A program made the translations under genes and the position numbers. A stretch of DNA of 64,000 bases, taken from Octopus sinensis (lineage: Eukaryota). Location: contig NC_043005.1 in NCBI RefSeq assembly GCF_006345805.1, forward strand, positions 109,639,382 through 109,703,381, in the 5' to 3' direction. The notes under the pieces were generated by a model that was not told the origin of the DNA, ran no database searches, and saw only the letters and a program-made list of their open reading frames with translations. Positions 29,685 through 59,208 of the stretch are shown here, one piece after another (position 1 is the stretch's first letter; every line of letters starts with the position of its first letter).

Positions 29685-30195
29685 TCAAAATGAAAATCAA
29701 AATCGAAATTGATCAACATCAGTGGAATTTGTAGTTGTGATACCAGTGCCGGTGGCACGTAAGAGTACCATCCGAACGTGGCCGTAGCCAGTGCCGCATC
29801 GACTGGCCTCCGTGCCGGTGGCACATAACAAACACCATCCGATCGTGGCCATTGCCAACCTCGCCTGGCCTCCATGCCGGTGGCACATAACAAGCACAAT
29901 CTGATCGTGGCCATTGCCAGCCTCGCCTGGCCTCCGTGCCGGTGGCACGTAAAAAGCACCATCCGAGCGTGGCCGTTCACCAGTCTTGGCTGGCACCTGT
30001 GTCGGTGGCACATAAAAAGCACCCACTACACTCACGGAGTGGTTGGCATTAGGAAGGGCATCCAGCTGTAGAAACTCTGCCAGATCTGACTGGCCTGGTG
30101 CAGCCTTCGAGCTTCCCAAACCCCAGTTGAACTGTCCGACCCATGCTAGCATGGAAAGCGGACGTTAAACGATGATAATTATGATGATGATGATT
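29685..30195 (+). mobile_element. RTE-type 3' end (family E) with five 62-66-bp tandem units
   Basis: Units start near 29745, 29811, 29873, 29935, 29998; (GAT)n tail. Confidence 0.85.
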
Positions 30196-33382: not shown

Positions 33383-33426
<44 letters not shown>

Positions 33427-33639
33427 TCAATATAGGGTGGCAAAAAATTTTGTAGAATTTTTTTGCCACCAGCGGCCTAGTGGAAAAAATTAAATAGTCA
33501 TAGACCATTTTTAAGTTCAACATCACATCAGGAACGGCCATAATAGGCCATTCACCCACTAGAAATAACAGCCAAAGCTTCCCGCAAATAAACATCAATT
33601 CCGTAAACCAGGAGAAAATTAAAAAACATTTACCCTGTA

Positions 33640-33745
33640 ATTTCTTATACGATGCACCGTTTCATCTACTGTTTAATGGTAAACTAACCTGATTAATTAA
33701 ATCAAGCCAATCTTCCATAGGCCCTTAGAATCATCAGTAAGAAAT
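33640..33745 (-). ncRNA. Type I hammerhead ribozyme (mirror copy)
   Basis: Reverse complement of 33858-33964 with the core intact. Confidence 0.75.
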
Positions 33746-33857
33746 AGCAAGTCGGAACAGATATTTTCACGAGGCATTTCCGACCCTGCCTCGGCAATAT
33801 CTGACCTAAAATTTTCAAATCATCGCACTCGCGCCAAATATCTGTTCCGACTTGGCT

Positions 33858-33964
33858 ATTTCTTACTGATGATTCTAAGGGCCTATGGAAGATTGGCTTG
33901 ATTTAATTTAATCAGGTTAGTTTACCATTAAACAGTAGATGAAACGGTGCATCGTATAAGAAAT
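33858..33964 (+). ncRNA. Type I hammerhead ribozyme
   Basis: Stem I atttctta/taagaaat; CTGATGA 33866-33872; stem II tcta/taga with a U.U at 10.1:11.1; GAAA 33941-33944; near-palindromic stem III acggtgcatcgt; GTA site 33954-33956. Confidence 0.75.
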
Positions 33965-34080
33965 TACAGGGTAAATGTTTTTTAATTTTCTCCTGGTTTA
34001 CGGAATTGATGTTTATTTGTGGTTGAAGCTTTGGCTGTTATTTCTAGTGGGTGAATGGCCTATTATGGCCGTCCTTGATT

Positions 34081-34146
<66 letters not shown>

Positions 34147-36656: not shown

Positions 36657-36678
36657 GTATATATATGTATATATATAT

Positions 36679-36990
36679 ATAAATTAGAGATAAAACCATT
36701 ATCATGCAACTCAAACAGTGATAGACATAAACCAATATATAAATAACCAATATATATATTATTTTTTTTTAATAAATATATAACTTATAACTAGATCTCA
36801 AAAAGTATAAAATGAATGATAAATATATAATATATTATTTGTTATTTATGTATTGGTTTATGTCTATCACTGTTTGAGTTGCCTAATAGTGGTTTTATCT
36901 CTAATTTATATTTCATATATTTATACTGTGAAATTTGATTTATACTAAATTGAATTTTTCCCTGTAAGTTTGGAGTTAAACTCCCTAATA
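36679..36990. repeat. Foldback element in (TA)n
   Basis: Inverted arms ~36679-36748 and ~36841-36909. Confidence 0.75.
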
Positions 36991-42397: not shown

Positions 42398-43527
42398 GGC
42401 AATGAGCTGGCAGAAACGTTAGCACATCAGGCGAAATGCTTAGCGGTATTTCATCTACCGTTACGTTCTGAGTTCAAATTCCGCCGAGGTCAACTTTACC
42501 TTTCATCCTTTCGGGGTCGATAAATACGTACCAGTTACGCACTGGGGTCGATATAATCGACTTAATCCGTTTGTTTCTCCTTGTTTGTCCTCTCTGTGTT
42601 TAGCCCCTTGTGGGTAGTAAAGAAGTAGGTATTTCGTCTGCTGTTACGTTCTGAGTTCAAATTCCACCGAGGTTGACTTTGCCTTTCATCCTTTCGGGGT
42701 CCATTAAATAAGTATCAGTTACGCACTGGGCTCGATATAATCGACTTAATCCGTTTGTTTGTCCTTGTTTGTCCTCTCTGTGTTTAGCCCCTTGTAGTAT
42801 TTCGTCTGCTGTTACGTTCTGAGTTCAAATTCCACCGAGGTTGACTTTGCCTTTCATCCTTTCGGGGTCCATTAAATAAGTATCAGTTACGCACTGGGCT
42901 CGATATAATCGACTTAATCCGTTTGTTTCTCCTTGTTTGTCCTCTCTGTGTTTAGCCCCTTGTGGGAAGTAAAGAAATAGGTATTTCATCTGCTGCTACG
43001 TTCTGAGTTCAAATTCCACCAAGGTCGACTTTGCCTTTCATCCTTTCGGGATCGATAAATTAAGTATCAGTTACGCACTGGTGTCGATATAATCGACTTA
43101 ATCTGTTTGTCTATCCTTGTTTGTCCTCTCTGTGTTTAGTCCCTAGTGGGTAGTAAAGAAATAGGTATTTCGTCTGCTGTTACGTTCTGAGTTCAAATTC
43201 CACCGAGGTCGACTTTGCCTTTCATCCTTTCGGGGTTGATAAATAAAGTACCAGTTACACACTAGGGTCGATATAATCGACTTAATCCCTTTGTCTGTCC
43301 TTGTTTGTCCTCTCTGTGTTTAGCCCCTTGTGGGTAGTAAAGAAATAGGTATTTCGTCTGCTGTTATGTTCTGAGTTCAAATTCCGCCGAAGTCAACTTT
43401 GCCTTTCATCCTTTCAGGGTCGATAAAGTACCAGTTACACACTGGGGTTGATGTAATCAACTTAATCCCTTTGTCTGTCCTTCTTTGTCCCCTCTAGGTT
43501 TAGCCCCTTGTGGGCAATAAAGAAATA
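42398..43527 (+). mobile_element. SINE family B tandem array (1 full plus 5 head-truncated units)
   Basis: Units start at 42398, 42628, 42797, 42980, 43164, 43348; period 184 bp for the last units. Confidence 0.95.
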
Positions 43528-48440: not shown

Positions 48441-48525
48441 TATACTGGATAACTGATATCCCATAGTGGATTACCCTCATAACCCCTATCTTACTTTGTA
48501 CTATATATATATATATATATATATG

Positions 48526-49050
48526 AAATAGTGTACATTTAAACACAAGAGAAATTACCTTTACCAGGTAATTTTACATGCTAGAAGAGGCAGACAAAAA
48601 TGACCAATACCACATTTAAGAGCAATTTCAAAGGGAATGGAAAATAAAAACTTCTTAACTCGTTATATTTTTATGGTTATACCTAGGTTTCAAATTTTTT
48701 AGCAAATAAAATAATTTACCAGGCGAAATTCTCATCAGTAACCATGCCATAACATTAACACATAATTTAGAAATGAATAACATGTGTCTCATCATTATAT
48801 GTTATAATTTTTCAAATTCACCGCGCAAGTGCAGTTTCAGTTGGCAGCACATGAGAAATGCTGAACTGATCTTCGAAAGGCTAAAATCATATACGTAAAA
48901 TATGTAGGGTAGTGAATATTTTTAGAAATTTCCCTACCAGTGGCCTAGCATGTATAAAAAGTCAATAGACAACATATTCTCAATATAAAATAGTATACAT
49001 TTAAACACAAGAGAAATTACCTTTCACAGGTAATTTTAAATGATAGAAGA
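48526..49050 (-). mobile_element. Retrozyme-like / Penelope pLTR-like element: 462-bp unit plus 63-bp terminal direct repeat
   Basis: Direct repeats 48526-48588 and 48988-49050 (5 mismatches); internal hammerhead; (TA)n on the left, SINE A on the right. Confidence 0.75.
48673..48745 (-). ncRNA. Type I hammerhead ribozyme
   Basis: Minus strand atggtta CTGATGA gaattt...aaattt GAAA cctag GTA taaccat: 7-bp stem I, 6-bp stem II, palindromic stem III acctaggt. Confidence 0.85.
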
Positions 49051-58709: not shown

Positions 58710-58749
<40 letters not shown>

Positions 58750-58846
58750 GGAGTAAACACATAAATGTGAAACAAGGTGGAAAAAAGAGTACTCAAATAC
58801 CAGTGGTAGAGTAATATGCTTTATTTTAAGCAGCAGAAAATTCAAC

Positions 58847-58893
58847 AAAATCTGTTACTCTGAGTTTCTCGTTGCCGTTCATCAGACAGTTTT
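58847..58893 (-). ncRNA. Minimal type I hammerhead ribozyme (mirror copy)
   Basis: Reverse complement of 58902-58948. Confidence 0.7.
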
Positions 58894-58901
58894 TGCTAGA
58901 A

Positions 58902-58948
58902 AAAACTGTCTGATGAACGGCAACGAGAAACTCAGAGTAACAGATTTT
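58902..58948 (+). ncRNA. Minimal type I hammerhead ribozyme
   Basis: ctgt CTGATGA acg-gcaa-cga GAAA ctcaga GTA acag; stem III actc-a-gagt. Confidence 0.7.
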
Positions 58949-58998
58949 GTTGAATTTTCTGCTGCTTAAAATAAAGTATATAATATATATATATATAT

Positions 58999-59208
58999 AC
59001 TCTTTTACTCTTTTACTTGTTTCGATCATTTGACTGTGGCCATGCTGGAGCACCGCCTTTAGTCGAGCAAATCGACCCCAGGACTTATTCTTTGTAAGCC
59101 TAGTACTTATTCCATCGGTTCTCCTTTGCCGAAGTGCTAAGTTACGGGGACGTAAACACTCACCAGCATCAGTTGTCAAGCAATGTTGGGGGGATACAAA
59201 CACACAAG

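What the first reader, a model, noticed from the sequence alone, without database searches (positions are those of the whole stretch)
58748..58981. Second, unrelated head-to-head double-hammerhead hairpin
Seen: 81-bp arms, 6-nt loop, and minimal hammerheads (2-bp stem II with GCAA tetraloop; stem III actc-a-gagt) placed right beside the axis and facing outward; (TA)n on both sides. The geometry matches the 33.5-kb element but the sequence differs, so inversion near the ribozyme's 5' side looks mechanistic. Known: such short self-complementary stem III motifs are proposed to work as dimeric hammerheads.
Basis: partly seen in the sequence, partly recalled or inferred. Interest (0 to 1): 0.7.

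Follow-up and report, generated by a model that had tools for sequence, protein, structure and literature searches.

The report
Twin-primed Penelope stump marks RNA start
This hairpin is one of hundreds of short back-to-back stumps of a Penelope-type jumping gene, likely made when both cut DNA ends each copied the front of the element's RNA; the copies stop just before the hammerhead ribozyme motif, likely because the RNA begins there, and not at the motif's predicted cutting site.

Summary
The hairpin is real: perfect 76-bp arms (81 with one mismatch), a 6-nt loop, outward-facing minimal hammerheads and (TA)n flanks. It is a short inverted insertion of a Hydra-type Penelope-like element (PLE): 2,545 exact ribozyme copies and 458 close head-to-head pairs genome-wide. 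Its RT/GIY-YIG ORF carries the Hydra motifs. Arms end at two fixed 3' sites 71 nt apart; 86 of 89 inverted pairs join one of each. In 26 of 86, neither arm is contained in the other, which favours two separately primed cDNAs over fold-back. The junction hot spot is real: 64 of 117 arms reaching it stop 4-17 nt upstream of CUGAUGA. It has a sharp edge at -17, often with an extra G. No excess appears at the predicted cleavage site. Best reading: run-off at the RNA 5' end; no RNA 5' end was observed. The architecture is published, and this scan noted the same reading in other genomes.

The parts
58713..58747 (.). (TA)n target, left half
   Evidence: sequence
58748..58900 (-). Long (L) arm: 5'-truncated copy of the element's pLTR region, from -15/-16 to +137 relative to ribozyme C3
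   Evidence: the same L end occurs 3,497 times in G000
58748..58818 (-). 71-nt tail between the two fixed 3' ends (+67..+137), present on this arm only
   Evidence: one-sided tail described in PMC8557442, PMC3846280, PMC11167929
58852..58889 (-). Type I minimal hammerhead motif of the left arm; predicted cleavage between 58856 and 58855
   Evidence: descriptor hit; cleavage untested
58895..58900 (.). 6-nt loop; head-to-head junction (L arm reaches -15/-16, S arm -9; 0-1 nt overlap). The same junction recurs at 4 of the first 50 listed sites
58901..58976 (+). Short (S) arm: copy from -9 to +66
   Evidence: the same S end occurs 3,302 times in G000
58906..58943 (+). Type I minimal hammerhead motif of the right arm; predicted cleavage between 58939 and 58940
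   Evidence: descriptor hit; subfamily changes fall on U4, N7 and position 11.1, not on C3, G5, A6, G8, A9, G12, A13, A14
58977..58999 (.). (TA)n target, right half
   Evidence: sequence

Best explanation
The hairpin is one short inverted insertion of a Hydra-type Penelope-like retrotransposon in a (TA)n tract, likely made by two separately primed cDNAs that ran off the inferred 5' end of the element's RNA, 17 nt upstream of the hammerhead core, and were then joined head-to-head. Shown: family identity, TA targets, two fixed 3' ends (S at +66, L at +137), near-strict S+L pairing, a stop hot spot at -17..-4 with a sharp edge at -17, and no peak at the predicted cleavage site. Inferred steps: (1) the element's GIY-YIG endonuclease cuts both strands of (TA)n; (2) each 3'-OH primes RT at one of the two internal RNA sites, where the RNA reads CATAT or TCTA, close to the target; (3) when priming is on the pLTR copy at the front of the transcript, RT reads through the uncleaved hammerhead and runs off the RNA start at A(-17), sometimes adding a cap-templated C; (4) the two cDNA 3' ends are trimmed and joined over 0-6 nt of microhomology, often at the self-complementary CTAG; (5) gap filling gives the palindrome. 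The two hammerheads are passengers on opposite strands.
For: Family: ORF frame of 723 aa with RWK, DKT, YRDD, CxCX5C, CxxC and CxH motifs (motif list from PMC8557442 section 11). Tandem unit 3,345 nt; the ATG lies about 201 nt after C3. Pairing: 3,302 S and 3,497 L ends; 86 S+L against at most 3 same-type pairs, binomial p about 2e-22. Two primings: in 26 of 86 pairs the S arm reaches more than 10 nt further 5' than the L arm, and in 8 the arms share at most 1 nt. Hard stop: 64 of 117 arms end in -17..-4, against 7 of 53 in -31..-18. Of 61 distinct (TA)n-joined sites in the first 100 of 259 rows, 54 join at -17 and 7 further upstream, although a longer AT run lies 5-7 nt upstream (hand count). 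Of 91 distinct inverted junctions in the first 100 of 171 rows, 47 have G directly before A(-17), where the element has C; 14 overlap by the terminal AT and 5 join two -17 ends bluntly (hand count). An extra G marks capped full-length L1 insertions (PMC11702581 passage). Predicted stem I begins exactly at -17. The transcription start lies in the pLTR of the two PLEs mapped. In vitro, a PLE cuts both strands, starts RT at two internal sites that bound the tail, and uses mainly uncleaved RNA. Natural contrast: the retrozyme-like 33.5-kb family has the same two-end pattern but scattered junctions.
Against: No RNA 5' end was observed; only contigs of guessed RNA runs were available. Only 2 of the 54 (TA)n-joined sites at -17 carry the extra G, both from one complex insertion. 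42 of the 47 G junctions can also be read as a 1-nt A microhomology without a cap. Position -17 is also the predicted edge of stem I, so a structural or nuclease-made end is not excluded. The window copy itself and 60 of 86 pairs are compatible with fold-back of the L cDNA. Partners of the 31 long arms were not scored. The samples come from the first 73-94 Mb of one contig, and the anchors favour young copies. The initiator-like match at CCATTCT rests on a recalled consensus.
Confidence: 0.65

Rival explanations
1. Fold-back or self-priming: one cDNA (or an antisense template, as proposed in PMC3846280) snaps back near CTAG or the T-tract and copies itself, and the second end is then resolved at site S by the endonuclease.
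For: Palindromes at junctions are common. Arms of one insertion are closer to each other (2.1 differences per 50 nt, 31 pairs) than arms of different insertions (4.5). The window copy fits a 6-nt snap-back loop. Published proposal; the tail is ascribed to endonuclease resolution in PMC8557442.
Against: A folded-back copy must be contained in its template. 26 of 86 pairs break this by more than 10 nt and 8 share at most 1 nt. Zero-loop palindromes centred on GC, AT or CG occur. Single S arms and single L arms exist with the same stop. The model needs a separate cause for the exact S end.
Confidence: 0.15
2. Two cDNAs as in the best reading, but the -17 edge is made by ribozyme structure rather than by a transcription start: a longer RNA is trimmed back to the base of the extended stem I, or RT stalls there.
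For: The predicted extended stem I starts exactly at A(-17). 53 of 188 arms run past -17. The extra G is rare in (TA)n-joined copies.
Against: RT has already displaced stem I by the time it reaches -17 (inference). G before -17 in 47 of 91 inverted junctions. Arms that pass -17 are expected from priming on the 3' pLTR copy. The 33.5-kb family also has a hammerhead but no such edge.
Confidence: 0.15
3. One reading: ribozyme cleavage, as monomer or dimer, sets the inversion point, and the double-hammerhead hairpin is a functional unit.
For: Junctions lie beside the ribozyme's 5' side. The catalytic core is kept across subfamilies. 10 of 188 arms end at +27..+33, and 11 (TA)n joins start at +28..+31, so a minor cleaved template is possible.
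Against: The predicted cut is at +30, 34-47 nt from the hot spot. The cleavage-site window has 20 joins against 43 in a control window. The stop rate per 14 nt is 0.075 there against 0.55 at the hot spot. Both arms contain sequence on both sides of the cut. The ribozymes are on opposite strands and a transcript is predicted to fold into a 76-bp duplex. Junction sequences differ between copies, so this is not one amplifying hairpin.
Confidence: 0.05

Closest known systems
EN+ Penelope-like element insertion unit with an inverted 5'-truncated copy and a one-sided tail (PMC8557442, PMC3846280, PMC2377424; passages read)
   Same: Head-to-head inverted pLTR copies, tail on one end only, palindromic junctions, AT-rich targets, partial tandems.
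   Different: The tail is 71 nt rather than 30-40. Both arms are reduced to the front 80-155 nt of the pLTR. The passages read give no census of junction positions and propose self-priming, not twin priming.
Hydra clade of C-terminal EN+ PLEs (PMC8557442 section 11, read)
   Same: RWK, DKT, CxCX5C linker, CxxC and CxH in the endonuclease, hammerhead in the pLTR, (TA)n targets.
   Different: The unit is 3.35 kb (the paper says generally under 3 kb). No phylogeny was built here.
Poseidon of Anolis carolinensis in vitro (PMC11167929; parts 1-2 of 4 read)
   Same: Two internal RT start sites bounding the tail, both strands cut, uncleaved RNA as main template.
   Different: There the sites lie inside the ORF and are described as non-homologous to the target. 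Here they lie in the 5' UTR at short TA-like words. Inverted products and a 5' stop site were not described in the part read.
L1 twin priming and cap-derived extra G (PMC11702581; passages read)
   Same: Second target end primes a second cDNA; the two are joined by microhomology; an extra G marks the capped 5' end.
   Different: L1 arms barely overlap and the second priming site is variable. Here both sites are fixed and the arms usually overlap by about 80 nt, giving a true hairpin.
Minimal type I PLE hammerheads proposed to act as dimers (PMC4209133; passages read)
   Same: Short palindromic helix III, short helix I, extra nucleotide after A9.
   Different: 2-bp stem II with an A/A apposition at its base; stem I predicted to extend to about 16 bp; activity not tested.

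Membership tests
EN+ Penelope-like element | Single ORF with RT followed by a GIY-YIG endonuclease, linked to this pLTR | tested here: met
   723-aa frame in L031 with YRDD and a VVY..TYTG motif, between copies of the same ribozyme and ends. Pfam and PDB sequence searches gave no hit, so the assignment rests on motifs.
EN+ Penelope-like element | pLTRs in direct or inverted arrangement, with 5' truncation | tested here: met
   Direct tandem in L036 (3,345-nt unit), inverted in L031-L035 and 458 short pairs.
EN+ Penelope-like element | Tail present at one end only | tested here: met
   86 of 89 inverted pairs are S+L; the tail is 71 nt.
Hydra clade | RWK, DKT, CxCX5C linker, CxxC and CxH | tested here: met
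   All five motifs found (definitions).
Hydra clade | (TA)n targeting and a hammerhead in the pLTR | tested here: met
Hydra clade | Placement in the RT phylogeny | not tested
   No reference Hydra proteins were fetched.
Type I hammerhead ribozyme | Core CUGANGA / GAAA / UH with three stems | tested here: met
   Descriptor hit; core invariant across subfamilies except U4 and N7 in 167 copies; below Rfam threshold.
Type I hammerhead ribozyme | Self-cleavage, as monomer or dimer | not testable with these tools
   Predicted monomer hammerhead fold -3.0 against a minimum of -13.0 kcal/mol; stem III duplex -8.0. No genomic cleavage-site peak.
Non-LTR retrozyme (for the 58.7-kb family) | Non-coding tandem units each with a hammerhead | tested here: not met
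   The family has a coding 3.35-kb unit. The feature is met by the 33.5-kb family: 488-nt tandem units, longest open frames 56-78 codons on the strand read.
MITE or fold-back DNA transposon | One amplified structure with equal terminal inverted repeats | tested here: not met
   The ends are unequal (S vs L), the centres differ between copies and the arms derive from an RT element.

The most novel reading that the evidence does not exclude
Short PLE hairpins are a genomic 5'-RACE. An asymmetric pair of RT molecules primes both ends of a double-strand cut at two fixed RNA sites, one each, and copies a capped, uncleaved transcript whose first nucleotide is the first base of the hammerhead's stem I. 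The ribozyme would then be the extreme 5' leader of the mRNA, kept inactive during integration. Retrozymes, lacking such an end, give scattered junctions. This would replace the self-priming model for inverted pLTRs.
Probability: 0.45. Interest if true: 0.6.

Novelty: new member of a known kind. Interest (0 to 1): 0.4.

Why it matters
How PLEs form inverted repeats and tails is named as an open question in PMC8557442. This family gives thousands of young insertions that separate the models: near-strict pairing of two fixed ends, non-overlapping arms, a single-base stop edge and no cleavage-site peak. It yields exact predictions (RNA start at A-17, priming at +66 and +137) for 5'-RACE and for the existing in vitro PLE system. 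The hairpin itself is an ordinary by-product, and the architecture and the dimeric-ribozyme idea are already in print.

Tried and rejected
Rfam: no hit. DNA search of G000 returned nothing because common words are skipped; patterns were used instead. Pfam (3 frames) and PDB sequence search: no hit. Sequencing runs: no RNA holder listed on record. Laying 4 of the 24 listed runs (contigs only) showed no joints and no start sites, which is uninformative. Splice-site idea: a 3' splice-like TTCTAG ends at -11, and the D. virilis intron ends at helix I. No spliced, same-strand skip was found among 110 distinct non-standard upstream contexts, and most stops keep up to 7 nt upstream of that AG, so it was rejected as the cause of the edge. 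Cleavage-site hot spot: a small cluster at +27..+33 in the sample did not survive the genome-wide control; the two anchors differ in subfamily tolerance. One amplifying master hairpin: rejected, many junction types occur. Alignment ends near -133 to -175 are artefacts of a low-complexity stretch and were binned as long; L127 was mis-called at +49 and reset to -10. Literature searches: Penelope-like + twin priming + inversion gave 3 papers, none on PLE integration by title and abstract start; Penelope + head-to-head + hammerhead + truncation gave 0; Octopus + Penelope + hammerhead gave nothing specific. Subscription papers are not covered and no supplements were read.

Full report
Coordinates below are relative to the C of the ribozyme core CUGAUGA (C3 = 0) unless given as window positions.

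1. Observation. The window holds perfect 76-bp inverted arms at 58819-58894 and 58901-58976 around a 6-nt loop; 81 bp is reached across one mismatch. (TA)n flanks both sides. The left arm runs 71 nt further, to 58748. Rfam has no hit.

2. Family. The 35-nt ribozyme word occurs 2,545 times exactly in G000, with 0 for the reversed control. Long copies carry an ORF: a 723-aa frame in L031, and 93-94% identical pieces in L036 and L034. It has RWK, DKT, YRDD, CxCX5C, CxxC and CxH, the features listed for the Hydra clade of Penelope-like elements, which insert into (TA)n and carry hammerheads (PMC8557442 section 11). Pfam and PDB searches were blank, so the assignment rests on motifs, not on a tree. 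L036 is a direct tandem with a 3,345-nt unit, and the ATG lies about 201 nt after C3. The ribozyme is therefore in the pLTR, which doubles as 5' UTR.

3. Two fixed ends. Copies end either at +66 (S; 3,302 matches) or at +137 (L; 3,497 matches), each followed by (TA)n. I analysed 90 of the first 91 listed S ends and 98 of the first 100 L ends, all on contig C1. Among the 157 arms shorter than 125 nt upstream, 35 had no inverted partner and 10 had a partner with another 3' end. The remainder gave 86 distinct S+L pairs and at most 3 same-type pairs (binomial p about 2e-22 if ends were chosen independently). Partners of the 31 long arms were not scored there; several show an L partner. The window copy is L (left) plus S (right). 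A one-sided tail is a published PLE trait, tied in vitro to two RT start sites.

4. One cDNA or two. Both outer ends are element 3' ends joined to target DNA. A folded-back copy must be contained in its template. In 26 of 86 pairs the S arm reaches more than 10 nt further 5' than the L arm, and in 8 the arms share at most 1 nt, for example L111 with an 11-nt L arm and a 73-nt S arm. Most junctions have 0-6 nt of overlap, and symmetric ones centre on self-complementary words. This fits two cDNAs joined by microhomology, as in L1 twin priming, better than the self-priming proposed in PMC3846280. The other 60 pairs, including the window copy, do not exclude fold-back on their own. Arms of one insertion are more alike than arms of different insertions (2.1 vs 4.5 differences in 50 nt), which both models allow.

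5. Where arms stop. Head-to-head pairs number 458 with gaps of 0-30 nt and 75 with gaps of 31-60 nt; 16 of the first 50 have the window's 22-nt gap. Of 188 arms, the fraction stopping per 14-nt bin is 0.075 around the cleavage site, 0.19 at -3..+10, 0.55 at -17..-4 and 0.13 at -31..-18 (Fisher p=2.5e-7; arms of one insertion are not independent). The edge at -17 does not depend on inversion. 54 of 61 distinct (TA)n-joined sites join there and only 7 further upstream, although a longer AT run lies 5-7 nt upstream (first 100 of 259 rows, hand count). 199 copies have a letter other than the element's C before A(-17); the first 100 are 39 G, 44 T, 17 A. Among 91 distinct inverted junctions, 47 have G before A(-17), 14 overlap by the terminal AT, 5 join two -17 ends bluntly, 16 run further or are ambiguous and 9 are other (first 100 of 171 rows, hand count). 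An extra G is the published mark of a copied cap. Against this: 42 of the 47 allow a cap-free reading, and only 2 of the 54 (TA)n joins have G. The predicted stem I starts exactly at -17, as expected if the RNA starts there, but this is also the basis of a structural rival. PLE starts mapped so far lie in the pLTR. RNA data could not test this.

6. The ribozyme's role. (TA)n joins in +29..+35 number 20 distinct sites against 43 in +2..+8, so there is no cleavage-site excess. This agrees with the in vitro finding that uncleaved RNA is the main template. The core is kept across subfamilies, with changes at U4, N7 and 11.1 (167 copies). The monomer fold is predicted unfavourable and the stem III palindrome can pair in trans, in line with PMC4209133. 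In the hairpin the two motifs lie on opposite strands, and a transcript is predicted to form a -145 kcal/mol duplex, so they are passengers.

7. The 33.5-kb element. It belongs to a different, apparently non-coding 488-nt tandem family (282 exact matches), that is, retrozyme-like (definition in bioRxiv 10.64898/2026.07.22.740005, part 1 of 5 read). It also has two recurrent ends, but its 14 head-to-head gaps in the first 100 rows span 28-650 nt with 1 of 14 within 30 nt, against 13 of 22 for the present family. Missed inexact copies can inflate some of those gaps, but alignments of 12 loci confirm junctions across the unit.

8. Known and new. Inverted truncated copies, tails, TA targeting and dimer-type hammerheads are published. 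My searches found no census tying inversion points to the RNA start or arguing twin priming for PLEs; coverage is limited to open-licence papers and no supplements were read. Papers seen: PMC11167929 parts 1-2 of 4; PMC8557442 passages plus sections 10 and 11; passages of PMC4209133, PMC2377424, PMC3846280 and PMC11702581; the bioRxiv preprint part 1 of 5. Earlier notes of this scan, read after my reading was written down, reach the same view in other genomes, and 321 notes share the search words. They are not independent evidence. One note calls this genome an octopus; I did not test that.

9. Verdict. Real, a new member of a known kind. Confidence is about 0.9 for the family, 0.65 for twin priming with run-off at the RNA start. 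Interest 0.4.

Noticed in passing
window 33419-34085: Inverted insertion of a 488-nt retrozyme-like tandem family with a long-stem-II hammerhead. It has two recurrent ends (unit positions about 220 and 325) and junctions scattered over the unit.
   Followed up: partly
window 48506-49050 (core at 48738, minus strand): A third, unrelated type I hammerhead with a palindromic stem III next to (TA)n, inside a direct repeat of about 465 nt; possibly another retrozyme-like family.
   Followed up: no
window 36677-36911: Another inverted repeat after (TA)n (arms of 22 + 32 bp, 113-nt centre), probably a stump of a further PLE family; no hammerhead hit with my descriptor.
   Followed up: no
L031 4170-4260 (G000:C1:2702769-2702859): A near-full-length copy inverts right at the start codon, with a second switch into the 3' UTR, so one insertion holds at least two template switches.
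   Followed up: partly
L271 (G000:C1:37863278-37863650) and G000:C5:83780571-83781332: Small tandem runs of single stumps separated by (TA)n, probably duplicated after insertion by microsatellite slippage; they slightly inflate site counts.
   Followed up: no
L117; L137, L229, L262: Some copies delete the whole ribozyme or join through stem I self-complementarity (12-16 nt overlaps), showing that the stem can steer a minority of junctions.
   Followed up: partly
loci L111-L300: A second subfamily carries U4C, N7C and 11.1 G or U in the hammerhead; 11.1 U gives a 3-bp stem II, in some copies with a GGAA loop. The window's subfamily has the weakest stem II.
   Followed up: partly
window 42445-43527 and 29746-30023: Tandem arrays of 184-bp and 62-bp units, apparently from SINE-like repeats.
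   Followed up: no
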